Origin: a virus
Lineage: Duplodnaviria > Heunggongvirae > Uroviricota > Caudoviricetes
Length of the DNA stretch: 32,584 nucleotides
Virus record (IMG/VR): IMGVR_UViG_2565956616_000004
Direction: 5' to 3' (one strand)
The notes beneath the pieces are model-generated. The model was not told where the DNA came from. It made no database searches and was given only the letters and a program-made list of their open reading frames with translations. How positions within the stretch are numbered: the stretch's first letter is position 1; the number at the start of each line of letters is the position of its first letter. Below, piece by piece: positions 5,629-32,584 of the stretch. The translations under genes and the position numbers were made by a program.

Positions 5629-6117
5629 CTAAAACGGAATATCGTCTTCAAAGTCCATTGGAGGTTCGTTATTGGCGCTGCTCTGAGGTTTGCCGCCACC
5701 GCTGTATTGCTGGTGGTTTTGAGGTTGGTTTGACTGCCCCCAGCCATTTGAGGACTGTGAATCGTCGCGGCGAGTGCCGATCATTTGCATGGTGCCGCCC
5801 TGGCTGACGATAATTTCCGTCGTGTAACGTTCTACACCGGCGTCATCAGTCCACTTACGGGTTTTAAGTTTCCCTTCGATGTAGACCTGAGAACCTTTTC
5901 GTAAATACTCACTCGCAATTTCAGCAAGTTTTCCGAACAAAACGACTTTATGCCATTCTGTTTGCTCTTTCTGTTGGCCCGTTTGCTTATCGCGCCATGA
6001 TTCATTCGTTGCGATGCTGAGTCTTCCGACTGCGCCGCCATTTGGTATATACCTGATCTCCGGGTCTTGCCCCAGGGTACCAATCAGGATGACTTTGTTT
6101 ACACCGCGTTGTGCCAC
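5629..6117 (-). CDS. ssb: Single-stranded DNA-binding protein
   Basis: 162 aa; N-terminal OB-fold consensus ([20 protein letters not shown]), Gly/Gln-rich linker and the acidic C-terminal tail DFEDDIPF. The start appears to be GTG. Confidence 0.9.
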
Positions 6118-6136
6118 TTTTCTTACCTAATAAAAT

Positions 6137-6153
6137 AAATTAATTAGAGCAAT
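6137..6153 (-). promoter_or_regulatory. C1 repressor operator-like 17-mer upstream of ssb
   Basis: Minus-strand sequence ATTGCTCTAATTAATTT, one mismatch from the P1 C1 operator consensus ATTGCTCTAATAAATTT as I recall it. Confidence 0.55.
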
Positions 6154-6286
6154 AATGTATATCTTTGAAACGTGGCTAACAAGTGATTTGCATTATCCTG
6201 TGCCTTCTAAAGGGATCGAGTCAGTCGGTATTGGCTGTGAATGAGTGTTTGTCCTGGAGCGTAAAAAATTCGCTTATGAGGTCTTT

Positions 6287-6844
6287 ATGAAGGGAAAAAC
6301 AGCCGCAGGAGGCGGTGCAATTTGCGCTATCGCGGTGATGATTACCATCGTGATGGGTAATGGCAATGTGCGAACCAACCAGGCGGGGCTTGATCTGATT
6401 GGTAACGCTGAAGGTTGCCGACGTGATCCATACATGTGCCCGGCGGGGGTATGGACTGACGGGATCGGTAATACACACGGGGTAACGCCGGGTGTGCGAA
6501 AAACCGACCAGCAAATCGCCGCTGATTGGGAAAAGAATATCCTGATCGCTGAACGCTGTATTAATCAGCACTTCCGGGGCAAAGACATGCCCGATAATGC
6601 CTTCAGTGCAATGACAAGCGCGGCATTCAATATGGGATGCAATAGCTTACGGACCTACTACAGCAAAGCGCGAGGCATGCGAGTAGAAACGTCCATCCAC
6701 AAGTGGGCGCAGAAAGGGGAATGGGTGAATATGTGTAACCATCTCCCTGATTTCGTGAACAGTAACGGCGTGCCCCTGCGAGGTTTAAAGATTCGCCGTG
6801 AAAAAGAACGCCAGCTTTGCCTGACGGGGCTTGTCAATGAATAA
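6287..6844 (+). CDS. lyz: SAR-type endolysin (T4-lysozyme fold)
   Basis: From ATG 6287 with a GAGG Shine-Dalgarno. N-terminal Gly/Ala-rich weakly hydrophobic segment (GGGAICAIAVMITIVMG) followed by an E-x8-D-x5-T catalytic triad pattern (NAEGCRRDPYMCPAGVWTDG). Confidence 0.8.
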   Translation: MKGKTAAGGGAICAIAVMITIVMGNGNVRTNQAGLDLIGNAEGCRRDPYMCPAGVWTDGIGNTHGVTPGVRKTDQQIAADWEKNILIAERCINQHFRGKDMPDNAFSAMTSAAFNMGCNSLRTYYSKARGMRVETSIHKWAQKGEWVNMCNHLPDFVNSNGVPLRGLKIRREKERQLCLTGLVNE

Positions 6845-7091
6845 ACTCCGGCAGCTCCGCCGACTTTCGACAATGAAGTTATCGCTGGCGGCGATAGTTT
6901 TTGACTCGATTTTCATGGCGGTATATGTGCTCAATGAGACGTGGCCACTGGAACCGCTATTGTATGCCGGGCTTCGGCTGTGCCTGACATTTTTGAGCAT
7001 GGCTGCGAGATTGATGCAGCAGAAAGAAACCGCTTCAGATTGTCCACGCCGCGCGGTGCGCAAATATATGGCACGAAGGCGAAGGCGATAA
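6837..7091 (+). CDS. Small hydrophobic membrane protein, possibly lysis-associated
   Basis: ATG at 6837 overlaps the lyz stop (ATGAATAA); the product has predicted hydrophobic segments and an Arg-rich tail. No family recognised. Confidence 0.4.
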   Translation: MNKLRQLRRLSTMKLSLAAIVFDSIFMAVYVLNETWPLEPLLYAGLRLCLTFLSMAARLMQQKETASDCPRRAVRKYMARRRRR

Positions 7092-7102
7092 TAGTTAACG
7101 AG

Positions 7103-7130
7103 AACCCCGGCAGCTGCCGGGGTTATTTTT
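7103..7130 (+). terminator. Intrinsic terminator after the lysis genes
   Basis: Palindrome ccccggcag/ctgccgggg (7105-7122) followed by ttattttt. Confidence 0.6.
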
Positions 7131-7135
7131 GGTGG

Positions 7136-9866
<2,731 letters not shown>

Positions 9867-16734: not shown

Positions 16735-17175
16735 ATGGCCACACTATCTGATACAATAAAACCGAATAAAACATATCTTGAGGCGGTACTCCGTACAGCG
16801 TTGTTAGGAAAGACAGAAGACGAATACGTTGATTTCTTCCTGTCAGGGCTACGCGGGCGATTACTGAAAAATCCCCGCCTGTACCGCAGCTATGGTCCAT
16901 ACTGGCCGGAAATTAAAAAATTATTACTGGAGCGCGGTTATGGTAATTTCGGTCGTCTCGTTGACCGTGACGTTCGCAAAATTTACCGTTATGACCGCCC
17001 GGCGCTAACACTCATAGCCGCGACGCTCTACAGCCAGGAGCGTTTTGATAATGGTCAGATATACTCAGCCTGGCATTTACTGCCAGTGCCTGAAGAAGTT
17101 GACGACCAGGACTATGAGTTTGAGTCTTACGATTTGGAAGTTGAAGCCTTGGCACAGGCTGGAGAGAAAACTTGA
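16735..17175 (+). CDS. Hypothetical 146-aa protein at the position of P1 ulx
   Basis: ATG at 16735 directly downstream of darB on the same strand. Identity is inferred from gene order only. Confidence 0.5.
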   Translation: MATLSDTIKPNKTYLEAVLRTALLGKTEDEYVDFFLSGLRGRLLKNPRLYRSYGPYWPEIKKLLLERGYGNFGRLVDRDVRKIYRYDRPALTLIAATLYSQERFDNGQIYSAWHLLPVPEEVDDQDYEFESYDLEVEALAQAGEKT

Positions 17176-17420
17176 AAAAGCGATACTACACAGTAAAGCA
17201 TGGGACGCTACGAGCATTACAAGAGTTTGCTGACAAGCATAACGTTGAGGTGCGCAGGGAAGGGGGAAGTAAAGCTCTGCGCATGTACCGTCCGGACGGG
17301 AAATGGCGGACGGTCGTCGATTTCAAAACAAACAGTGTTCCCCAGGGCGTCCGCGACCGGGCATTCGAAGAATGGGAGCAGATCATCATAGATAACGCAT
17401 TGCTTCTGAATGCTGATTAA
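17172..17420 (+). CDS. Small protein (82 aa) at the position of P1 lxc (C1 co-repressor)
   Basis: TTG start overlapping the upstream stop (TTGA), preceded by GGAGAG. The size matches my recollection of Lxc; not a sequence-level recognition. Confidence 0.45.
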   Translation: MKKRYYTVKHGTLRALQEFADKHNVEVRREGGSKALRMYRPDGKWRTVVDFKTNSVPQGVRDRAFEEWEQIIIDNALLLNAD

Positions 17421-17424
17421 GAAC

Positions 17425-17453
17425 TCTCCGGCCTAGGGAGATTAGGCCGGAGA
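17425..17453. terminator. Stem-loop between the convergent lxc-like and SIR2 genes
   Basis: Perfect 11-bp stem tctccggccta / taggccggaga with loop gggagat; the flanking U-tracts are only moderate. Confidence 0.5.
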
Positions 17454-17461
17454 TAAATATA

Positions 17462-18766
17462 CTATATAAACTTAGATACAATATCGTGAATCTGTTGTAG
17501 CGGGATATCTTCCATCTCATTCTTAATAAGAGAGCGGTTAGATGCTGTCAGTGAAGGCCATTTTGTTTTCCAGGCTAGATATGCTCGCCATGAGTAGCCT
17601 GTTTCGTAAGGTTTATTCATATAAGTCATTGAGTGTTCAACCGCATGTATGTATTTTTTCTCAAAATTGGTTCCTTTTACTTCAAATAAACTACCGAAAT
17701 AAATAAGCCATTTTGCCAGGTGTTCATACTGCTCCCATGCGCCAGGCTTTTTAGTAAGTTCTATTTTTTTATCTATTATATTACAAAAAACATTTAATAC
17801 ATTTTCATTATTCCAGCTATATCCAGATGATGAAATGGAGGAAATGATATGATAAAAAGAATCCTCTAGCTTCAAGAACTCTATTTTATACTCTCTTCCG
17901 TTTTTTATTACCGATTTGATTGAGTGCCTCAATTTGTCTTTTATTTTTTTTGCTTCTGGAATTTTATCGTTAAGTTTTCTAAAGAAATCAGATACCTCTG
18001 TTTTATCTATAACCCTAACCCCATAGCAGGAAAAATAGTAATCTTTAATAGGTTGCAATAGTTCCCCTCGGGAAACAAGGAAAATATTGGAGGACATTAC
18101 GTTGTCCCGTGAAAATACCTTATATTCATTTATAATAGCCTTTAGGTTCGCGTCACTTAGAGAATAGCCAAGGATAACAATAGTGTTTTCATGTAGAACT
18201 GTGCTTAGTTTATTAGAAAAGTAAGAATTACCATTTATAAATCTGAAATAATCCTCGCTAGTAACAACCATGTCTGATGGGGAGTCTATAGAACCGTGAA
18301 CATGGTAGACTTTAACCTCACAATTATATTTTGGAATTGGCAGGCCGGGGGTGATTGTACACGTTCGATTCTCTCCAGCCAGCTTTTCTGCTAACTTGTC
18401 ATAATTTGTCGTAATTACTTTAAATGTGTTTTCTTTGAAAAAGTCTTGAATATATTCAATTGATGGATCAAGTTCGATTGAGGCTATGATTTTCTCAATC
18501 TCTTGGTAAATATTTTTCCCCGAAAGTATAAATTTTAGTGCAATAACCTGAGCAGCTTCTTCAAGGCTAAGGTCTTTTGCTTTTCCATCAGGAAATAATT
18601 CCTCTTTGAGTGAGTCACCATCCTTCAATAAACCGCACAGTTGCTCCAATAAAGATTGCCAACTTGGGGCTTTATCATCAGAAACAGCCTTTGAAAATCC
18701 AGTGCCTGTAAGAAAGCACAGCCTATGTGTAGCCGCTGCATAGGCAATTTCTATATACTCGCTCAT
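17462..18766 (-). CDS. SIR2-family (SIR2_2-like) domain protein, 434 aa: N-terminal SIR2 NADase-like domain plus an unassigned C-terminal domain of about 200 aa; candidate anti-phage effector
   Basis: ATG at 18766 with a GGAG Shine-Dalgarno 6 nt upstream. Motifs FLTGTGFS (aa 18-25), ITTNYD (aa 118-123; N121 codon at 18404-18406) and HVHGS (aa 155-159; H157 codon at 18296-18298). The gene is visibly AT-rich (roughly one-third GC by eye) while the flanking genes are near 50 percent. Confidence 0.85.
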   Translation of the reverse strand: MSEYIEIAYAAATHRLCFLTGTGFSKAVSDDKAPSWQSLLEQLCGLLKDGDSLKEELFPDGKAKDLSLEEAAQVIALKFILSGKNIYQEIEKIIASIELDPSIEYIQDFFKENTFKVITTNYDKLAEKLAGENRTCTITPGLPIPKYNCEVKVYHVHGSIDSPSDMVVTSEDYFRFINGNSYFSNKLSTVLHENTIVILGYSLSDANLKAIINEYKVFSRDNVMSSNIFLVSRGELLQPIKDYYFSCYGVRVIDKTEVSDFFRKLNDKIPEAKKIKDKLRHSIKSVIKNGREYKIEFLKLEDSFYHIISSISSSGYSWNNENVLNVFCNIIDKKIELTKKPGAWEQYEHLAKWLIYFGSLFEVKGTNFEKKYIHAVEHSMTYMNKPYETGYSWRAYLAWKTKWPSLTASNRSLIKNEMEDIPLQQIHDIVSKFI

Positions 18767-18822
18767 TACTTACTCCATTTACTTATAGTTCTACGGAGAA
18801 GTATACCCTAATGCATTGACGT

Positions 18823-19464
18823 TTATAGATAATTTCCTTTTCCTGTTAATACTCCCTTAGGCACCTGTTTTTGTGCCAGCGTTTGGGTGCCGCGAATTAT
18901 GTTAATCAGAGGGCTTAGTAACGATGGTTCCTGGCGTGCCTCAACTTCTCCAGCCATTGCCCTGATGTAGTCGGCGCTGGCAACGTTGTTGTATTCCGTC
19001 GCAAAGCAACATAGTAACGTCAGAACATGCTCTGTCGTTATTTCGCTCCAGTTAATGTTGAAAAATTCATCGCCTTTTTTATCGTGTTCGGAATCGAAGA
19101 TGCTTTGGTGGAGGATGTATTTGCCGGATTCCTTGCGCGGTAACTTGATTGCTTTCTGGCGTTCCAGCTCCTTATAAATCTGCATTGCCTCAATTAGTAC
19201 CGGCCTGCCGTTCATGAAGGGATCGCGCAACCTTACACGCTGGCCAACTCGACCAGTAATAAAGCTGTTTTCCTCTTCCACCAGCACGATAAAACCCTTT
19301 TCCTCTTTTTCTCGCAATTCGCGCAGCAGCTGGAGTTCCATATCGCGGCGGCGTTCAGGGTAGCTGGTCCGCTCAGCCATTATTAGCTCATTGTTGATCC
19401 ATGCAGCAGTCATTGACGCCGGTTTGCCGACGCTCATCGAAACAACGCATATTTTCTTATCCAT
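18823..19464 (-). CDS. Hypothetical 214-aa protein immediately upstream of the SIR2 gene on the same strand (position of P1 mat)
   Basis: ATG at 19464 with an AGGGGG Shine-Dalgarno; the longer 262-aa track ORF uses a GTG at 19611 with no Shine-Dalgarno and runs through a terminator. Backbone-like GC content. No recognisable catalytic motif. Confidence 0.5.
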   Translation of the reverse strand: MDKKICVVSMSVGKPASMTAAWINNELIMAERTSYPERRRDMELQLLRELREKEEKGFIVLVEEENSFITGRVGQRVRLRDPFMNGRPVLIEAMQIYKELERQKAIKLPRKESGKYILHQSIFDSEHDKKGDEFFNINWSEITTEHVLTLLCCFATEYNNVASADYIRAMAGEVEARQEPSLLSPLINIIRGTQTLAQKQVPKGVLTGKGNYL

Positions 19465-19476
19465 AGCGCCCCCTAC

Positions 19477-19505
19477 AAAAAAGAAAAGCCACCAGCGGCG
19501 GCTTA
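19477..19505 (-). terminator. Intrinsic terminator downstream of ref (minus strand)
   Basis: On the minus strand: stem gccgcc/gguggc (one G-U pair, extendable by aagcc/ggctt) followed by UUUUCUUUUUU; it lies about 10 bp upstream of the next gene's Shine-Dalgarno. Confidence 0.5.
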
Positions 19506-19653
19506 GCAATACAACTGAAGGTAGCGCCCGGTACTCAGACTGTGCCGTCCATGGAATATTTGAAAAGGGATCCATCCGTACCGGGCATGTGATGATTCTG
19601 ACTGAAGTCACTTGTCAGTTGTCAATTATTTCAGATTAAAAATAATATATTTA

Positions 19654-20214
19654 TTAGTGCATGATGTTTGCCATCTCATAGGCGTCAGCCAGCAACTCCA
19701 TCTCTGACTTGTTCAGCAAGGTGAATTCTTTCTTGCCTCCAACCACACCATCGGCATGAACAGGGACCAGCCAGGGGTATTTTTCTCTTACTTCAGCCGG
19801 TGCTGCATGCTGGTGGTGCCATCTACAAAGTGGCAATTGCTTTTTGTGACAACCAGGCGCGGTACGACCGGAGATATGGTGCAGAGACACCTCTTCAGAT
19901 ATTACTCCATGCATATAGCAGGCAATGCAGGGGAGAGCGCCAAGAGCATTGGCTATGCGCCGCTCCTCCGCCGTCGGTGTTCGTCCCTTCAAGCCACGAG
20001 ATTTTATTTTTACCGCGCTTTTCCGCGTTTTGCTGGCTGGTGGGCGCTCTTTCTGTTTAGCGATACGGCGGTCGATAGTATTCCGCATTTTCTGATATTG
20101 AGATTCTCGCCAGGCCGGATCAGCCAACTTCTCCCGTTGCCGAGCGATCGCTCGTTCTCTGGCTGCCTTCTGCCACTTACGGTGCTGTTCAATTTTTTGT
20201 TCGATTGTTTTCAT
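19654..20214 (-). CDS. ref: Ref (recombination enhancement function), HNH-family endonuclease
   Basis: 186 aa from ATG 20214; basic low-complexity N-terminus (MKTIEQKIEQHRKWQKAARERAIARQREK) and a Cys/His-rich HNH-like core (CIACYMHGV...SLHHISG...CHKKQLPLCRWHHQ). Matches my recollection of P1 Ref. Confidence 0.85.
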   Translation of the reverse strand: MKTIEQKIEQHRKWQKAARERAIARQREKLADPAWRESQYQKMRNTIDRRIAKQKERPPASKTRKSAVKIKSRGLKGRTPTAEERRIANALGALPCIACYMHGVISEEVSLHHISGRTAPGCHKKQLPLCRWHHQHAAPAEVREKYPWLVPVHADGVVGGKKEFTLLNKSEMELLADAYEMANIMH

Positions 20215-20435: not shown

Positions 20436-20463
20436 AGCCTGGCTCCTTGCCAGGCTTTTTTTA
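20436..20463 (+). terminator. Plus-strand intrinsic terminator-like hairpin overlapping the stop of the minus-strand 103-aa ORF
   Basis: Stem agcctggc / gccaggct with loop tcctt, followed by T7. Confidence 0.45.
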
Positions 20464-20772
20464 TTTCATCATGGAAGCTGTTAATGCTTTGGACCTTGCT
20501 GAACTGATTGAGAGGGCTTTGTCAACGTGCCCCAAAAATTCGCCAAACTCAGACATCACTTTAGCAAAACCGCGCCGTGCTTCTTCCTCGGTGGCATTCA
20601 TCACGAAATGTTCAGCACTACGCATACTTCTGACAGGGAACGCAACGGATATTGAGTCAATATCAGGCATTCTATCGCTCAGCTTTACAGTGACAATGAC
20701 GGCTGGCGACTGAATATTAGTGCTCACTGACAGCACTACATATTTTCCGCCGATGTTGAAATTCTTTCTCAT
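20461..20772 (-). CDS. Hypothetical 103-aa protein between cre and ref (position of P1 cra)
   Basis: ATG at 20772 with a GGTG Shine-Dalgarno, immediately downstream of an operator-like site; positional assignment only. Confidence 0.5.
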   Translation of the reverse strand: MRKNFNIGGKYVVLSVSTNIQSPAVIVTVKLSDRMPDIDSISVAFPVRSMRSAEHFVMNATEEEARRGFAKVMSEFGEFLGHVDKALSISSARSKALTASMMK

Positions 20773-20822: not shown

Positions 20823-21854
20823 CTAATCGCCATCTTCCAGCAGGCGCACCATTGCCCCTGTTTCACTATCCAGGTTACGGATATAGTTCATGACAATATT
20901 TACGTTGGTCCAGCCACCAGCTTGCATGATCTCCGGTATTGAAACTCCGGCGCGGGCCATATCTCGTGCGGCTCCGACACGGGCACTGTGTCCAGACCAG
21001 GCCAGGTACCTCTGACCAGAGTCATCCTTAGCCCCGTAAATCAATCGGTGAGTTGCTTCAAAAATCCCTTCCAGGGCGCGAGTTGATAGCTGGCTGGTGG
21101 ATGATGGCGAGGCAACACCATTTTTTCTGACCCGGCAAAACAAGTAGTTATTCGGATCATCAGCCACACCAGAGACGGAAATCCATCGCTCGACCAGTTT
21201 AGTTACCCCCAGGCTAAGTGCCTTCTCTACACCTGCGGTGCTAACCAGCGTTTTCGTTCTGCCAATATGGATTAACATTCTCCCACCGTCAGTACGTGAG
21301 ATATCTTTAACCCTGATCCTGGAAATTTCGGCTATACGTAACAGGGTGTTATAAGCAATCCCCAGAAATGCCAGATTACGTATATCCTGGCAGCGCTCAC
21401 TATTTTCCATGAGTGAACGAACCAGGTCGAAATCAGTGCGTTCGAACGCCAGCGCCTGTTTTGCACGCTCACCGGCATCAACGTTTTCTTTTCGGATCCG
21501 TCGCATGACCAGTGAAACAGCATTGCTGTCACTTGGTCGTGGCAGCCCGGACCGACGATGAAGCATGTTTAGCTGGCCCAAATGTTGCTGGATAGTTTTT
21601 ACTGCCAGACCGCGCGCCTGAAGATATAGAAGATAATCGCGAACATCTTCAGGTTTTGCGGGAAACCATTTCCGGTTATTCAACTTGCACCATGCCGCCC
21701 ACGACCGGCAAACGGACAGAAGCATTTTCCAGGTATGCTCAGAAAACGCATGGCGATCCCTGAACATGTCCATCAGGTTCTTGCGAACCTCATCACTCGT
21801 TGCATCGACCGGTAATGCAGGCAAATTTTGGTGTACGGTCAGTAAATTGGACAT
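20823..21854 (-). CDS. cre: Cre tyrosine site-specific recombinase
   Basis: 343 aa, MSNLLTVHQNLPALPVDATSDEVRKNLMDMFRDR...RLLEDGD. Near-identical to Cre as I remember it, with a handful of substitutions (for example DRHAF, PAKPEDV, AEISRIRV). Confidence 0.97.
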   Translation of the reverse strand: MSNLLTVHQNLPALPVDATSDEVRKNLMDMFRDRHAFSEHTWKMLLSVCRSWAAWCKLNNRKWFPAKPEDVRDYLLYLQARGLAVKTIQQHLGQLNMLHRRSGLPRPSDSNAVSLVMRRIRKENVDAGERAKQALAFERTDFDLVRSLMENSERCQDIRNLAFLGIAYNTLLRIAEISRIRVKDISRTDGGRMLIHIGRTKTLVSTAGVEKALSLGVTKLVERWISVSGVADDPNNYLFCRVRKNGVASPSSTSQLSTRALEGIFEATHRLIYGAKDDSGQRYLAWSGHSARVGAARDMARAGVSIPEIMQAGGWTNVNIVMNYIRNLDSETGAMVRLLEDGD

Positions 21855-29509: not shown

Positions 29510-29594
29510 TACATTGAAAAGGCATAGTTTGTGAAAGCGGGGTTTGTAGGCGCGCCACGCTGGGGGCTAATCACATTTCTCCCCCATCTTGCCG

Positions 29595-29846
29595 TTATTT
29601 TTTTGGTGCATCCTCGTTCTGATACACCGGATCGCTCCCTTTTGGCAACTGGAGGCTTAACTGCCGGTAGTGCCGTAGCCGTTCCATGAAATAGGCGCGC
29701 AGGTTTTCCGGTTGCTCACGGGCCACCTGCTCTGCAATCACAGGTATATTCAGCCGTTCTTTGTAAGCAACGCCGCTGGCGGCAAGGTCTACGTTCACCT
29801 TGTCTCGCTCTTCCTGGCTTTTAGCTGCTATATTTCGATCTGACAC
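29595..29846 (-). CDS. hot: Hot, homologue of the DNA polymerase III theta subunit (HolE)
   Basis: 83 aa, apparent GTG start with a GGAGG Shine-Dalgarno; [43 protein letters not shown] parallels E. coli theta. Confidence 0.85.
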
Positions 29847-29878
29847 AAGAAACCTCCAGGAGTTAGTGGATCAGGCAC

Positions 29879-30229
29879 ATGCACAATAACGTTCTCAATG
29901 TTAGCCGTTCAATTCAGACAATCAGAGACTGCACCAGTGTGGTGGCATCAATCCCATTGCGAAACAGCATAGACGAACTGCAAATTCGTGTATTGAATCC
30001 GAATCAGGCTAATAAGCAATTGCGCTTTATTTTGACGCTGAAAAGTGAAACAGAGGGGATAAAGCACAGCGTAAAAGTGTTTTCTGAGGCCATTCTGCTT
30101 AATGGGAAGTTCCGGCATCTGGTAAGGCCAGAACGTCAATATCCTGACGTCCTGGCGCGTGAAAAAGACCTTCTTTCTGAAGTTCAGGATAGGGTGATCG
30201 ATTTCGTCAAATGCTATCCCCTGCATTGA
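29879..30229 (+). CDS. Hypothetical 116-aa ORF (weakly supported; an overlapping minus-strand ORF 29948-30226 is equally possible)
   Basis: ORF only; weak Shine-Dalgarno; no motif recognised. Confidence 0.25.
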   Translation: MHNNVLNVSRSIQTIRDCTSVVASIPLRNSIDELQIRVLNPNQANKQLRFILTLKSETEGIKHSVKVFSEAILLNGKFRHLVRPERQYPDVLAREKDLLSEVQDRVIDFVKCYPLH

Positions 30230-30428
30230 GGGCAGGTGTTCCCTTCCGCAAAGTAGGGAAAATTGCTATCAAGTTCATCACACCATCTGCGATGGTCGTA
30301 GCACCAAAAGCCTCCCACGGTAAACCAAAAGACTTCATCCACTGGGACACTCGATCTAGTATATCTGCTGGTGGCAGTTCTTCTGGCAATAATTTGCCTG
30401 ATAATTCCCTTTCCGCCCGCGACAGCAT
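30207..30428 (-). CDS. Coiled-coil-like ORF in the -1 frame relative to the short upstream ORF (73 aa from its own ATG, 80 codons open)
   Basis: MLSRAERELSGKLLPEELPP...; its own ATG at 30428 has no Shine-Dalgarno; the frame is open upstream to the slippery site. Confidence 0.45.
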   Translation of the reverse strand: MLSRAERELSGKLLPEELPPADILDRVSQWMKSFGLPWEAFGATTIADGVMNLIAIFPTLRKGTPALNAGDSI

Positions 30429-30496
30429 TTTTTTGAGGCTCGCGTTCTCTTTTTCAGCTCATCTACGCGCACCTGTAATTCAGCTTTCGTTGGCAT
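30356..30496 (-). CDS. Short ORF (46 aa) with a strong Shine-Dalgarno that contains a G AAA AAG slippery heptamer; likely the 5' part of a frameshift-expressed gene
   Basis: GAGGTGG Shine-Dalgarno then ATG at 30496 (MPTKAELQVRVDELKK...); slippery heptamer at 30449-30455. Confidence 0.4.
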   Translation of the reverse strand: MPTKAELQVRVDELKKRTRASKKCCRGRKGNYQANYCQKNCHQQIY

Positions 30497-31130
30497 GGTC
30501 CACCTCATGCTTTTCAGCCACCAGCGGCAATAAAGCCCTGGCCATCTTATGAACCAATAGTGCATCAATAATGCCAAGCGTATGCCCCGGCTTAATGTTT
30601 AATGCCGCCTCAAGGTGACACCTTTCCAGGTCACTTTTCTCGGCTTGTTTATGATGATCTGGTGTAATAACGTCGCCCAAAACACGGCTAATTCTTTCTC
30701 GTAATTGCTGGGTGCCAGCACACTTGATCGCTGTATCGTGGAGACGGTTAACCAGTTCGCGATAAACATGCGGCTTAATGCGGATACGTTCACCGGTGAC
30801 GCCCTTTCCTGGCGCTGGCACCGAACTATCCGGAATATCCGGATAGTTGCCAGCCTCGTAAGCTACCCGCAGCCAGTGCATGAATGTTTCAGTGGACACA
30901 CAACCACAGTCCACATCGATTTTTCCGCGTTGCTGTTCCAGCCAATGCTCAAAATTCAATCTACACGTATTACTTTCATGTTGCTCTTTTTGTCTCAAGG
31001 CCAGCATCTGCTGGGCTATTTCCAATACTTCATCTGCCGTATATCCAGCACCGTGACCATACATTTCGATACGGGAAATAATCTCTGATATGCGCTCTTC
31101 AGTGATTCTGGTCATTTCTTTTTGCGCCAT
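30480..31130 (-). CDS. Hypothetical 216-aa protein
   Basis: ATG at 31130; no recognised motif; overlaps the next gene's start. Confidence 0.55.
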   Translation of the reverse strand: MAQKEMTRITEERISEIISRIEMYGHGAGYTADEVLEIAQQMLALRQKEQHESNTCRLNFEHWLEQQRGKIDVDCGCVSTETFMHWLRVAYEAGNYPDIPDSSVPAPGKGVTGERIRIKPHVYRELVNRLHDTAIKCAGTQQLRERISRVLGDVITPDHHKQAEKSDLERCHLEAALNIKPGHTLGIIDALLVHKMARALLPLVAEKHEVDHANES

Positions 31131-31486
31131 TTCTTTTCACATTCCTTAGTCCATTCTTCAATGTTCATTTTGGCAATATCAGTCATTCCATCACCTAAGA
31201 AATACTTTTTCCGGTATGTCTTGCACTTAAACCACACTACAACAGCCACCAGCCAGAAAATAAAAGGCCATACAGCAATACCAACGACAGCCGCGATAAA
31301 GCCCAATAGCCATAAATGAAGCTCTCCAACTTCTGTTTCCGGCAATATTCTTAAAGAATTAAACAGCAGGATGAACGAATGGTCGTATGCATTGGCAGTA
31401 TAAGACATGCAATCCATATAATTAAAGTCATAGCCTGCGGCTGCCGCCCATAATGGGCGGTCAAGAAAATGTTTTAGTGTCATCAT
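31112..31486 (-). CDS. Small membrane protein (124 aa) with a Lys-rich C-terminus
   Basis: ATG at 31486; central hydrophobic helices (LWLLGFIAAVVGIAVWPFIFWLVAVVVWF). Confidence 0.5.
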   Translation of the reverse strand: MMTLKHFLDRPLWAAAAGYDFNYMDCMSYTANAYDHSFILLFNSLRILPETEVGELHLWLLGFIAAVVGIAVWPFIFWLVAVVVWFKCKTYRKKYFLGDGMTDIAKMNIEEWTKECEKKWRKKK

Positions 31487-31492
31487 ATAAAT

Positions 31493-31786
31493 TTAAGGTT
31501 CAGACCAGTTATCTTCAATAGCAATGCTTAATCTTTGTAGCCATTCTGCTAATTTCAGCATTGCTTCTCTTTCGCTTAAACCACGAGGAAAATCATCAAG
31601 CGAAATTGTTGGCTTGAATCCCCCGCAATTATCCATTTCAACTGTCAGATTTTGTTCCAGCACGGTATTTCTTACGCGGCTATTGTGCCGGAGCAAATAT
31701 ACTGAGCGTGATTTATTGGTTTTGTGGTCTAGCTTATATTCGGTAAGTATCATCTGGCTTTTGCCATGATTATTACCTCTCCACAT
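31493..31786 (-). CDS. Hypothetical protein of about 97 aa
   Basis: Start taken at ATG 31786 (MWRGNNHGK...) with a GAGGT Shine-Dalgarno 5 nt upstream, rather than the TTG at 31882 used by the ORF track. Confidence 0.45.
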   Translation of the reverse strand: MWRGNNHGKSQMILTEYKLDHKTNKSRSVYLLRHNSRVRNTVLEQNLTVEMDNCGGFKPTISLDDFPRGLSEREAMLKLAEWLQRLSIAIEDNWSEP

Positions 31787-31793
31787 ACTTACC

Positions 31794-31916
31794 TCACTTA
31801 ATAAAACAACTCCATGCGTAGTTGATGATTTTTTCCCACGTAATATAAATCTGCGCTCCGGCAGTAAAACCAAAGCCAACAATTGCTGAAAAAATCAAAA
31901 CATTTACTTTTGACAT
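31794..31916 (-). CDS. Possible 40-aa hydrophobic peptide
   Basis: ATG at 31916 (MSKVNVLIFSAIVGFGFTAGAQ...); its stop overlaps the Shine-Dalgarno of the downstream gene. Very tentative. Confidence 0.25.
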   Translation of the reverse strand: MSKVNVLIFSAIVGFGFTAGAQIYITWEKIINYAWSCFIK

Positions 31917-31964
31917 TATAAATTTTCTCTCGGTGTCGTAGGTGATAGCACCATAATTGATAAT

Positions 31965-32566
31965 TTAGTGAGTTAGCAGTTCCATTTTTTTGATGATTTC
32001 CGCATGAGCATCATCGTTATCAACACTTAGCTCGTTTAATGCTTCTCGCACTACATCAACTTCTTCAGGCTGAAAGAAGTCGTCGCGGTAATCACCAAAT
32101 AGAACCGAAACCAGCCTGCCACCAGCAACATCAAGATTGGCGCTAACAGGTGGCTCTTTGCCATCCTCAAATTCGACTAGTTGCCATTCACAAGGTCAGC
32201 TCGAACATATAGCGTGTCATCATGGTGCTGATTGTGGCTGCACCACGTTAATTCGCTTAACTCGCCATCTTCTGGCCATACTCCAGCCGTTTGCAGCCAG
32301 ATATGGGCTGGCGCATCTTGGCAAGGTGTATTAACTGGCAACTTGTAAGTTTGGCTTACAGGTTGGCTACCCTGAAGCATGGCAGCGTGGCAGGCATCCT
32401 CTACGCCTTTAACTGCATCTGCGCAGTAGTTATAGCGATTGCATTCCACTAACTTCTGCTTGAGATTTTCAATTGCTTGCGCGACATCATCCTGTATTTC
32501 CGGAACTGGCGGAACGGCTGTCTGCTGCTCTCGAACGTCATTAGTCGCTATCGGTTCTGCTGCCAA
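31965..32566 (-). pseudogene. Possible frameshifted gene: a 129-aa ORF (32177-32566) followed by a start-less 77-codon ORF in the -1 frame (31965-32195)
   Basis: The downstream reading frame (…EFEDGKEPPVSANLDVAGGRLVSVLFGDYRDDFFQPEEVDVVREALNELSVDNDDAHAEIIKKMELLTH) has no plausible start codon and overlaps the upstream ORF end by 19 nt; no slippery heptamer at the junction. Confidence 0.3.
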
Positions 32567-32584
32567 CTGACTGGCATATTTGTT

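What the first reader, a model, noticed from the sequence alone, without database searches (positions are those of the whole stretch)
17421..19653. Cargo exchange at the lxc-ref junction: the slot where P1 carries its type III restriction-modification genes holds a 1.3-kb SIR2 gene instead
Read right to left, the backbone order in the window is cre, 103-aa gene, ref, 214-aa gene, then the SIR2 gene, then lxc-like, ulx-like and darB. From my recollection of the P1 map (cre, cra, ref, mat, res, mod, then lxc, ulx, darB), the res/mod genes (about 5 kb) would sit exactly where the SIR2 gene now is. No large methyltransferase or restriction-subunit ORF is present between 17421 and 19653. The insert is bounded by a perfect 11-bp hairpin at 17425-17453 on one side and the stop of the 214-aa gene on the other. 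This suggests the locus is a swappable defence-cargo position in P1-like elements.
Basis: partly seen in the sequence, partly recalled or inferred. Interest (0 to 1): 0.6.

Follow-up and report, generated by a model that had tools for sequence, protein, structure and literature searches.

The report
SIR2 gene in P1's swappable slot
In this P1-like phage-plasmid, the short gap between the lxc and mat genes, where P1 and P7 keep their restriction-modification genes, holds a single SIR2 gene that probably defends against other phages; the gap was already known to vary, so this is a well-supported but unsurprising case.

Summary
Against P1, homology stops exactly at the lxc stop codon (17420) and resumes exactly at the mat stop codon (18823). 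The 1,402 bp between them (GC 0.33-0.36, backbone about 0.50) replace P1's res-mod. They hold one 434-aa SIR2_2 gene and a perfect 11-bp hairpin. P7 also has res-mod here.

Among about 75 P1-like loci the interval takes at least 12 forms:
- SIR2 (19%), type III R-M, and the CapRel family. CapRel-SJ46, an experimentally validated defence gene, lies in this very slot.
- DUF2971, PIN, JukA and YaaC-plus-deoxyribosyltransferase-like cargos.
- GNAT and EAL cargos, which do not look like defence.
- An empty 43-bp form.

Only the last 100-150 nt of mat travel with the cargo. Nothing further out does, which fits exchange by homologous recombination.

The SIR2 protein has invariant NADase residues and a hypervariable C-terminal HEAT-like domain. 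It has no conserved partner gene. It looks like a miniature DSR2, so it is probably an abortive-infection NAD+ depleter, but this is untested.

The res-mod locus is already published as variable region "RD-1"/"region 1". The specific SIR2 allele and its family are uncharacterised. Corrections: the 103-aa gene is c8, and the "214-aa gene" is the 250-aa mat.

The parts
16735..17175 (+). ulx (Ulx-like anti-restriction), conserved left-flank backbone gene
   Evidence: 98% identical to P1 ulx. PHROG 1629 'Ulx-like anti-restriction'.
17172..17420 (+). lxc (modulator of the C1 repressor). Its stop codon is the left boundary of the variable slot.
   Evidence: P1 homology ends at 17420, which is the lxc stop. 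In all 80 surveyed loci the conserved sequence ends within 2-4 nt of this point.
17421..18822 (.). Cargo module of 1,402 bp that replaces P1 res-mod
   Evidence: No P1 homology. GC 0.33-0.36. Matched in 124 PLSDB plasmids, 65 of them over at least 80% of its length; the best, pZBEC21_01, is 100% identical. Found in 12 further IMG/VR loci in the same slot, with one more contig ending just inside it. No terminal inverted repeats or target duplications.
17425..17453 (.). Perfect 11-bp hairpin with a 7-nt loop between the convergent lxc and SIR2 genes; probably a bidirectional terminator
   Evidence: dG -22.2/-20.8 kcal/mol, z -4.8/-4.4. Flagged as terminator-like on the minus strand. Almost every other slot form, the empty one included, has its own GC-rich hairpin at this position.
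17462..18766 (-). SIR2 gene, 434 aa: SIR2 NADase-type Rossmann domain (about residues 1-255) plus an all-helical HEAT-like C-terminal domain (258-434)
18767..18822 (-). 56-bp spacer between the mat stop and the SIR2 start, with GGAG 7-10 nt upstream of the ATG; no hairpin
   Evidence: Sequence. The spacer differs by one base between the window allele and the 57%-identical SIR2 variants. No sigma-70 consensus match was found.
18823..19575 (-). mat (maturation control, 250 aa), the right flank. Its last 100-150 nt (18823 to about 18970) are linked to the cargo form.
   Evidence: 93-96% identical to P1 mat. In 50-nt bins, SIR2 loci are 99-100% identical while other forms are 58-78% in bin 1 and 48-93% in bin 2, returning to the uniform 91-100% level from about nt 150.
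19576..19653 (-). mat regulatory region: equivalents of P1's C1 operator Omat and promoters Pmat and LPmat
   Evidence: 97% identical to P1 2610-2730, which carries those annotated sites.
19654..20214 (-). ref (RecA-dependent nuclease), backbone
   Evidence: Pfam RecA_dep_nuc at 2.6e-50. 97% identical to P1 ref.
   Evidence: Aligns to P1 c8, 1518-1829.
20823..21854 (-). cre recombinase, backbone
   Evidence: 98% identical to P1 cre.

Best explanation
The lxc-mat intergenic gap of P1-like phage-plasmids is an accessory-gene slot, and it mostly holds anti-phage defence genes. The gap is 43 bp when empty. This element carries the SIR2 form of the slot in place of the type III restriction-modification genes of P1 and P7.

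Shown here:
- The boundaries sit at the two convergent stop codons.
- At least 12 unrelated low-GC cargos occupy the same position across P1-like elements.
- Only the last 100-150 nt of mat are linked to the cargo.

Inferred: forms of the slot move between otherwise near-identical backbones by homologous recombination in the conserved flanks (darB-ulx-lxc on one side, mat-ref-c8-cre on the other). Transposition or site-specific insertion is not needed.

The cargo gene encodes a 434-aa stand-alone protein. Its N-terminal SIR2 domain has the catalytic Asn/Asp/His of NAD+-hydrolysing defence sirtuins. Its C-terminal domain is a small, fast-diverging alpha-solenoid.

Inferred mechanism: the protein works like a miniature DSR2. 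The helical domain senses a component of an infecting phage and releases the NADase. NAD+ is then depleted and the infection aborts, which protects the lysogen population and the resident P1-like plasmid.

The hairpin at 17425-17453 most likely terminates both convergent transcripts. How the gene is transcribed is unresolved: from its own promoter, or by read-through from the C1-repressed and late mat promoters.
For: Slot:
- Exact breakpoints against P1. P1 and P7 both have mat-res-mod-lxc.
- At least 12 forms in 80 IMG/VR loci, all with GC 0.32-0.43.
- Cargo annotation: EcoP1I; CapRel-like (PDC-S33, 6.7e-86); DUF2971/PDC-S31; PIN_12; JukA; YaaC plus a weak, below-cutoff Nuc_deoxyrib_tr match.
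- CapRel-SJ46 lies between lxc and mat in phage SJ46, and it is an experimentally proven defence (PMC9712102).

Recombination:
- Cargo-linked divergence is confined to the mat 3' end, and there is none on the lxc side.
- No terminal inverted repeats, target duplications or transposase.

Frequency:
- 124 of 699 ulx-lxc-bearing PLSDB plasmids match the cargo.
- 133 of 5,426 complete E. coli genomes match, and 135 of the 137 places are on plasmids.

SIR2 protein:
- SIR2_2 domain. Invariant TTNYD and HVHG motifs. H157 aligns with DSR2 H171.
- Structural neighbours are DSR2, ThsA and KomC. The C-terminus is a HEAT-like solenoid.
- The C-terminus is the most variable part: 48-50% identity against 69% for the core between slot variants, and 68% against 92-99% between two close variants.
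- No conserved neighbour across the non-P1 contexts examined. Those contexts include prophage ends and sites beside other defence genes.
Against: - No experiment exists for this SIR2 family. PHROG 7567 is 'unknown function', and neither protein accession appears in the searchable literature.
- PADLOC and NCBIfam matches cover only the SIR2 domain. The Dsr2 equivalog scores 30.6 bits against a cut-off of 1,400.
- No recognisable sigma-70 promoter lies upstream of SIR2 and no terminator follows mat. Expression in the repressed prophage is therefore not established.
- Several slot cargos (GNAT, EAL/AraC-like, lipoprotein) are not obviously defensive.
- The recombination mechanism is inferred from population patterns. 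It was not observed.
Confidence: 0.7

Rival explanations
1. The SIR2 gene is a plasmid-stabilising (addiction) or other P1-serving function, not an anti-phage defence. It would take over the post-segregational killing role attributed to res-mod, or act during P1's own lytic cycle because it is co-transcribed with mat from the late promoter.
For: - SIR2 is co-directional with mat, 56 bp downstream, with no terminator between them.
- The mat control region (C1 operator, late promoter) is conserved.
- No separate promoter was detected.
- PMC6906374 counts res-mod among the P1 addiction systems.
Against: - There is no antitoxin-like partner or second ORF in the cargo.
- Homologues sit at integrated-prophage ends and beside R-M, Gabija-like and GmrSD genes in chromosomes with no plasmid context.
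- CapRel in the same slot and the same orientation is a proven defence.
- The fast-diverging C-terminal domain fits a sensor in an arms race.
Confidence: 0.12
2. The protein is an ordinary NAD-dependent protein deacylase, as RefSeq names it. It would modify a host or phage protein and be carried as a metabolic or regulatory moron.
For: The RefSeq product name is 'SIR2 family NAD-dependent protein deacylase'. The Rossmann core and the catalytic His are shared with true sirtuins.
Against: - It matches SIR2_2 (PF13289), not the canonical sirtuin family.
- The sequence has no CxxC...CxxC zinc-ribbon motif. Its six Cys are at positions 17, 44, 136, 149, 247 and 328 (read).
- All the closest solved structures are NAD+-hydrolysing defence effectors: DSR2, ThsA and KomC.
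- Its contexts include prophage ends and neighbouring defence genes.
Confidence: 0.06
3. The SIR2 gene is one component of a multi-gene system (Thoeris, SIR2-HerA, Lamassu-SIR2 or short-pAgo/SIR2). Its partner would lie elsewhere in the element or the host, so the gene is non-functional alone.
For: PADLOC gives domain-level hits to ThsA (8e-18) and LmuA (1.5e-13). A preprint reports anti-Thoeris Tad2 in 56% of P1-like elements.
Against: - The cargo holds a single ORF.
- The C-terminus is a helical solenoid, not a SLOG domain.
- No TIR, HerA, SMC or pAgo gene is a consistent neighbour in the contexts examined. The only HerA-like gene (DUF87, Halomonas) lies 2.6 kb and three genes downstream.
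- Neighbouring proteins from five of those contexts are not homologous to one another.
- The full-length 430-460-aa architecture is conserved across the family.
Confidence: 0.07

Closest known systems
P1/P7 res-mod locus: published variable region 'RD-1' (Venturini et al. 2019, PMC6906374) and 'region 1' (JL22 study 2022, PMC9603915) of P1-like phage-plasmids
   Same: It is the same genomic position, between mat and lxc. It shows the same low GC and the same pattern of res-mod being absent and replaced by other ORFs shared among E. coli phage-plasmids.
   Different: Those papers do not name the SIR2 form, list the series of forms, or define the boundaries to the base. Nor do they note the empty 43-bp form or the cargo-linked mat 3' end.
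CapRel-SJ46 (fused toxin-antitoxin defence of Salmonella phage SJ46; Zhang et al. 2022, PMC9712102)
   Same: It occupies the identical lxc-mat slot, in the same orientation (co-directional with mat), as a single gene of about 373 aa with an N-terminal effector and a C-terminal sensor.
   Different: Its effector is a tRNA-pyrophosphorylating toxSAS, not an NADase. The two proteins are unrelated in sequence.
DSR2 (defence-associated sirtuin 2, Bacillus subtilis)
   Same: Both have a SIR2 NADase domain with the same catalytic His. DSR2 is the best structural match (E about 4e-9), and both are single proteins with a C-terminal alpha-solenoid domain (PMC11850899 abstract).
   Different: DSR2 is about 1,000 aa with MID and CTD domains that bind the tail-tube protein. 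This protein is 434 aa with a solenoid of about 175 aa. The NCBIfam Dsr2 score is 30.6 against a cut-off of 1,400. Identity is about 14-21%.
Thoeris ThsA
   Same: The SIR2 domain is similar: PADLOC ThsA 8e-18, and PDB entries 7uxt, 6lhx and 8bto.
   Different: ThsA has a C-terminal SLOG domain that binds gcADPR and needs the TIR protein ThsB. Here the C-terminus is all-helical and there is no ThsB.
Defence hotspots of P2 phages and P4 satellites (Rousset et al. 2022; recalled from my own knowledge, not checked here)
   Same: The concept is the same: a fixed intergenic position in a conserved temperate-element backbone that holds alternative low-GC anti-phage systems.
   Different: The backbone differs (an extrachromosomal P1-type phage-plasmid), as do the flanking genes. 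The slot is bounded by two convergent stop codons, and it also holds some non-defence cargos.

Membership tests
P1-like variable region RD-1 / region 1 (res-mod locus) | Lies between mat and lxc on a P1-type backbone | tested here: met
   Breakpoints at the lxc stop (17420) and the mat stop (18823) against P1. P1 and P7 maps.
P1-like variable region RD-1 / region 1 (res-mod locus) | Low-GC content that differs between otherwise conserved elements | tested here: met
   GC 0.33-0.36 against about 0.50. At least 12 forms in 80 loci.
Defence-type SIR2 NADases (Pfam SIR2_2) | SIR2_2 domain above the Pfam gathering threshold | tested here: met
   83.4 bits against a cut-off of 24.5, E=2.1e-23.
Defence-type SIR2 NADases (Pfam SIR2_2) | Catalytic Asn/Asp (TTNYD) and His (HG) conserved | tested here: met
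   N121, D123, H155 and H157 are invariant in 33 homologues. H157 aligns with DSR2 H171.
Defence-type SIR2 NADases (Pfam SIR2_2) | NAD+ hydrolysis on infection, and phage resistance | not testable with these tools
   Needs plaque assays and NAD+ measurement.
DSR2 | Full-length match to the Dsr2 equivalog (about 1,000-1,200 aa; SIR2 + MID + CTD) | tested here: not met
   NCBIfam NF041819 scores 30.6 bits against a cut-off of 1,400 and covers only residues 117-212. The protein is 434 aa.
Thoeris (ThsA/ThsB) | C-terminal SLOG domain in ThsA and an adjacent TIR-domain ThsB | tested here: not met
   The C-terminus is all-helical and HEAT-like. The cargo has a single ORF. ThsA hits are limited to the SIR2 core.
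SIR2-HerA (Nezha) | Adjacent HerA helicase gene | tested here: not met
   No second ORF in the cargo. No adjacent HerA in the homologue contexts; the only HerA-like gene (DUF87, Halomonas) is three genes away.
Lamassu (LmuA-SIR2 / LmuB) | Adjacent SMC-like LmuB | tested here: not met
   The LmuA hit covers only residues 20-219. No SMC gene in the cargo.
PADLOC candidate PDC-S25 | Full-length match to the 517-528-aa profile | tested here: not met
   The match covers profile positions 127-278 of 517, which is the SIR2 core only.
Canonical sirtuin protein deacylases | Zn-ribbon with two CxxC pairs inserted in the Rossmann fold | tested here: not met
   No CxxC motif in the 434-aa sequence (read). 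No match to a canonical sirtuin (Pfam SIR2) family in the scan.
Transposon or IS-borne insertion | Terminal inverted repeats, target-site duplication, transposase | tested here: not met
   No flanking repeats beyond chance-level short matches. No transposase ORF.

The most novel reading that the evidence does not exclude
The 434-aa SIR2 + mini-solenoid protein (PHROG 7567) could be an uncharacterised, autonomous sensor-effector defence. It would be a 'mini-DSR2' whose hypervariable 175-aa HEAT-like domain recognises a phage protein. It is carried by roughly one in six P1-like phage-plasmids. The lxc-mat slot would then be a P1 equivalent of the P2/P4 defence hotspots, and its other uncharacterised cargos (DUF2971, PIN_12, YaaC + deoxyribosyltransferase-like, GNAT) would be new anti-phage systems waiting to be tested.
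Probability: 0.5. Interest if true: 0.5.

Novelty: new member of a known kind. Interest (0 to 1): 0.35.

Why it matters
P1-like phage-plasmids are common in E. coli and Salmonella. They also spread resistance genes. A base-precise, recombination-exchangeable slot holding alternative immune genes would help explain differences between lysogens in phage sensitivity, which bears on phage therapy and on transduction.

The slot also gives a compact, ready-made list of candidate defence genes. One member, CapRel-SJ46, is already a textbook system.

The SIR2 form is among the commonest and is untested. Its small size would make it a convenient model for how a SIR2 NADase is gated by a sensor domain.

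None of this overturns current ideas. It extends known patterns to a specific locus and a specific gene family.

Tried and rejected
- Transposon or IS insertion: no terminal repeats, duplications or transposase.
- Membership of Thoeris, SIR2-HerA, Lamassu, DSR2 or PDC-S25: only the SIR2 core matches, and partner genes and domains are absent.
- Hidden partner gene: the genes next to homologues in five non-P1 contexts are not homologous to one another or to Mat.
- Own promoter: the sigma-70 scan found nothing in the 56-bp spacer or the mat 3' end on the gene's strand. By eye there is only a weak TATAAG/TATACT. This stays unresolved.
- The Vibrio cholerae SIR2 defence paper (PMC11559045): that system is SIR2-HerA (Nezha), not this family. 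The V. cholerae homologue of this protein has no HerA beside it.
- Literature search for protein accessions WP_023155280 and WP_023156640: no paper. Searches combining SIR2 with phage-plasmid found nothing on this locus.
- Searches failed because a search term ('P1') was too short. They gave no information.
- Linkage on the lxc side: none found, 98.0% against 97.6%.
Full report

Yes. The ORF list and a blastn comparison with annotated P1 (NC_005856) give the following order, read right to left:
- cre, 20823-21854
- c8, 20461-20772, 103 aa
- ref, 19654-20214
- mat, 18823-19575
- a 434-aa ORF, 17462-18766
- lxc, 17172-17420
- ulx, 16735-17175
- darB

P1's own order is cra, cre, c8, ref, mat, res, mod(::IS5), lxc, ulx, darB. 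P7 has mat, res, mod, lxc, with Tn3 between ref and mat.

Homology to P1 ends at window 17420, which is the lxc stop codon (P1 9750). It resumes at 18823, which is the mat stop codon (P1 3468). So 1,402 bp replace 6,281 bp of P1, or 5,082 bp without IS5.

The replacing DNA has GC of 0.33-0.35, against about 0.50 around it. Its single long ORF is a SIR2_2 protein (Pfam E=2e-23).

The 11-bp perfect hairpin at 17425-17435/17443-17453 is real. It is far more stable than shuffled sequence: dG -22.2/-20.8 kcal/mol, z -4.8/-4.4.

Three small corrections apply:
- The 103-aa gene is c8, not cra.
- The "214-aa gene" is mat, which is 250 aa from the P1-equivalent start.
- The stated span 17421-19653 includes mat, which is backbone.

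**2. What lies in this position elsewhere?**

I fetched 80 P1-like loci from IMG/VR using Lxc as the query. I then located lxc, mat, ref, c8 and cre in each. About 75 loci contain both anchors.

The lxc-mat interval clusters into at least 12 unrelated forms, all with GC 0.32-0.43:

| Form | Content | Loci |
|---|---|---|
| SIR2 | 434/435-aa SIR2 gene | 13 + the window |
| c1 | 346-aa DUF2971 protein (PADLOC candidate PDC-S31) | 10 |
| c2 | 378-aa RelA_SpoT protein; full-length match to PDC-S33, E=6.7e-86 | 10 (incl. phage vB_EcoM-673R5) |
| c3 | EcoP1I-type res-mod | 8 (incl. P1) |
| c4, c12 | Empty, 43 bp or 35 bp | 7 + 1 |
| c5 | 316-aa PIN_12 protein | 6 |
| c6, c10 | GNAT acetyltransferase | 4 + 3 |
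| c7 | YaaC-like protein + 169-aa protein with a weak, below-cutoff deoxyribosyltransferase-like match | 4 |
| c8 | 3.5 kb: JukA, an HTH protein, an antirepressor-like protein, a lipoprotein | 4 |
| c9 | EAL + AraC-like | 4 |
| c11 | Lipoprotein | 1 |

The RelA_SpoT form is the CapRel family. In Salmonella phage SJ46 the order is lxc (56103-56351), RelA/SpoT protein (56389-57510, minus strand), mat (57623-58264). CapRel-SJ46 from that phage is an experimentally established anti-phage system (PMC9712102).

So the slot holds two validated defence systems (type III R-M and CapRel), several candidates, and a minority of cargos that do not look defensive.

**3. How common is the SIR2 form?**

- It is absent from all 50,697 phage records, even in distant-search mode.
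- It hits 124 PLSDB plasmids. Of these, 65 match over at least 80% of the length, mostly 92-99-kb non-mobilisable E. coli plasmids. For comparison, 699 plasmids carry ulx-lxc.
- In complete E. coli genomes it is found in 133 of 5,426, and 135 of the 137 places are on plasmids.
- The window is 100% identical here to plasmid pZBEC21_01.
- The weaker hits are a diverged SIR2 variant of 435 aa, 57% identical at protein level. Where checked, it sits in exactly the same slot: pM505-b, L043 and L074.

**4. How do the forms move?**

Nothing suggests a transposon. There are no terminal inverted repeats, no target duplication and no transposase.

I compared flank identity to the window in SIR2-bearing and other loci:
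- On the lxc/ulx/darB side there is no association at all, even in the first 250 bp (98.0% against 97.6%).
- On the mat side only the first bins differ. In 50-nt bins counted from the mat stop, SIR2 loci are 99-100% identical. Other forms are 58-78% in the first bin and 48-93% in the second.
- All groups return to the uniform 91-100% level by about nt 150.
- Three forms (c1, c9, c11) replace the last 118-132 nt of mat outright.

This is the pattern expected if a module consisting of the cargo plus the mat 3' end is shuffled among backbones by homologous recombination in the conserved flanks. That is an inference from population data.

Nearly every form, including the empty one, has its own GC-rich hairpin directly after the lxc stop. 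It is most likely a terminator between convergent transcription units.

**5. What is the SIR2 protein?**

It belongs to a compact family of 430-460-aa proteins conserved over their full length:
- Members are 55-61% identical across Vibrio, Halomonas, Xenorhabdus, Marinobacter, Pseudoalteromonas, Klebsiella, Pantoea and Pseudomonas.
- There are 72 clusters (at 50% identity) with E below 1e-30.
- It matches PHROG 7567 over its full length; that family is "unknown function".

Evidence on the N-terminal domain:
- The motifs TTNYD (N121, D123) and HVHG (H155, H157) are invariant.
- H157 aligns with the DSR2 residue mutated in the H171A entries.

Evidence from structure prediction:
- An AlphaFold model (pLDDT 81.7) shows a SIR2 Rossmann domain followed by an all-helical domain, residues 258-434.
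- The best solved-structure matches are DSR2, ThsA and KomC, all NAD+-degrading defence effectors.

The C-terminal domain is the least conserved part:
- 48-50% identity against 69% for the core, between the two slot variants.
- 68% against 92-99%, between two closely related variants.

Genomic contexts outside P1:
- At the end of an integrated E. coli prophage beside the integrase in three of four places; in the fourth, at the prophage edge beside host genes.
- Among HNH, HsdR_N-like (faint match) and DUF87 genes in Halomonas.
- Beside a type I HsdR.
- Beside Gabija-like genes in a Pseudomonas putida-type contig.
- Near GmrSD in V. cholerae.
- In Pseudoalteromonas, with no recognisable defence gene nearby.
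- The neighbours checked share no homology with one another.

I therefore read it as a single-gene sensor-effector, working like a miniature DSR2.

It fails the membership tests for DSR2 (30.6 bits against 1,400), Thoeris (no SLOG, no ThsB), SIR2-HerA, Lamassu and PDC-S25. It also lacks the zinc-ribbon CxxC pairs of true deacylase sirtuins (sequence).

**6. Expression is unresolved.**

- SIR2 lies 56 bp downstream of mat on the same strand. It has a GGAG ribosome-binding site, and no hairpin lies between the two genes.
- The mat control region is 97% identical to P1's, where it carries a C1 operator, a sigma-70 promoter and a late promoter.
- No sigma-70 match was found just upstream of SIR2.
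- The 56-bp spacer differs by one base between SIR2 variants whose coding DNA is only about 65% identical. This hints at a functional element there, or at recombination within the 5' end of the gene.
- CapRel has the same orientation in the same slot.

**7. Comparison with the literature.**

- Venturini et al. 2019 list res-mod as hot-spot RD-1. It was missing from three P1-like plasmids and replaced by ORFs shared with other phage-plasmids, and it sits at a low-GC boundary (PMC6906374).
- The JL22 study calls res-mod "region 1" of eight highly variable regions (PMC9603915).
- A 2025 preprint catalogues type III R-M, dGTPase, PrrC and CapRel on P1-like elements. The word SIR2 does not occur in its main text.
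- Papers on phage-plasmid gene flow discuss defence genes in general terms.
- I found no paper describing the SIR2 form, its protein family, or the slot's series of forms and boundaries.

**8. Verdict.**

The general phenomenon is already known. The new elements are the precise anatomy, the series of forms with CapRel-SJ46 placed in it, the evidence for recombination, and the identification of a common, uncharacterised SIR2-solenoid candidate defence. Interest is modest.

Noticed in passing
window 29525-32584: This is the only other stretch of the window that departs from P1. The lxr gene is missing, hot is only 85% identical, and most of the upf/pmgT-V region is replaced by other small ORFs, with GC 0.37-0.41 at 31001-32000. 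It corresponds to published 'region 8' of P1-like variable regions (PMC9603915).
   Followed up: partly
L073 12404-14404; also L025, L032, L035, L064, L065, L075, L080 (between mat and c8): There is a second variable position next door. In about 8 of 75 P1-like loci ref is absent, and roughly 2 kb between mat and c8 carry something else. In L073 this is a 352-aa protein whose ends closely match the ANT/antirepressor-like protein of the c8 slot form. L024 has a 5-kb insert between mat and ref, SJ46 has Tn1721/CTX-M-27 there, and P7 has Tn3.
   Followed up: partly
L046 10248-10282, compared with L008 and L002 slot sequences: One 'empty' form (35 bp) reads as a hybrid. It has the left hairpin arm of the CapRel form joined to the right tail of the 43-bp empty form, across a shared CCGGGCA. 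This could be the scar of cargo loss by recombination within the hairpins (n=1).
   Followed up: no
L002 (phage vB_EcoM-673R5) 3482-4581; L029 and L081 slot cargos: Some slot genes are broken. The CapRel-like gene of vB_EcoM-673R5 is split into 185- and 203-aa ORFs. The SIR2 gene is split or truncated in 2 of 13 IMG/VR loci. These could be sequencing errors or real inactivation.
   Followed up: no
L084-L087 (E. coli chromosomes), gene at 6001-7311: A 56%-identical homologue of the SIR2 protein sits at the edge of an integrated yfdP-type prophage near the ccm/narP region, directly beside the integrase in three of the four places. The same family is therefore cargo on a second, unrelated temperate element in E. 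coli.
   Followed up: partly
window 18767-18822: The 56-bp mat-SIR2 spacer and the first codons are almost identical between SIR2 alleles whose coding sequences are only about 65% identical in DNA. No promoter consensus was found, so the reason for this conservation is unexplained.
   Followed up: partly
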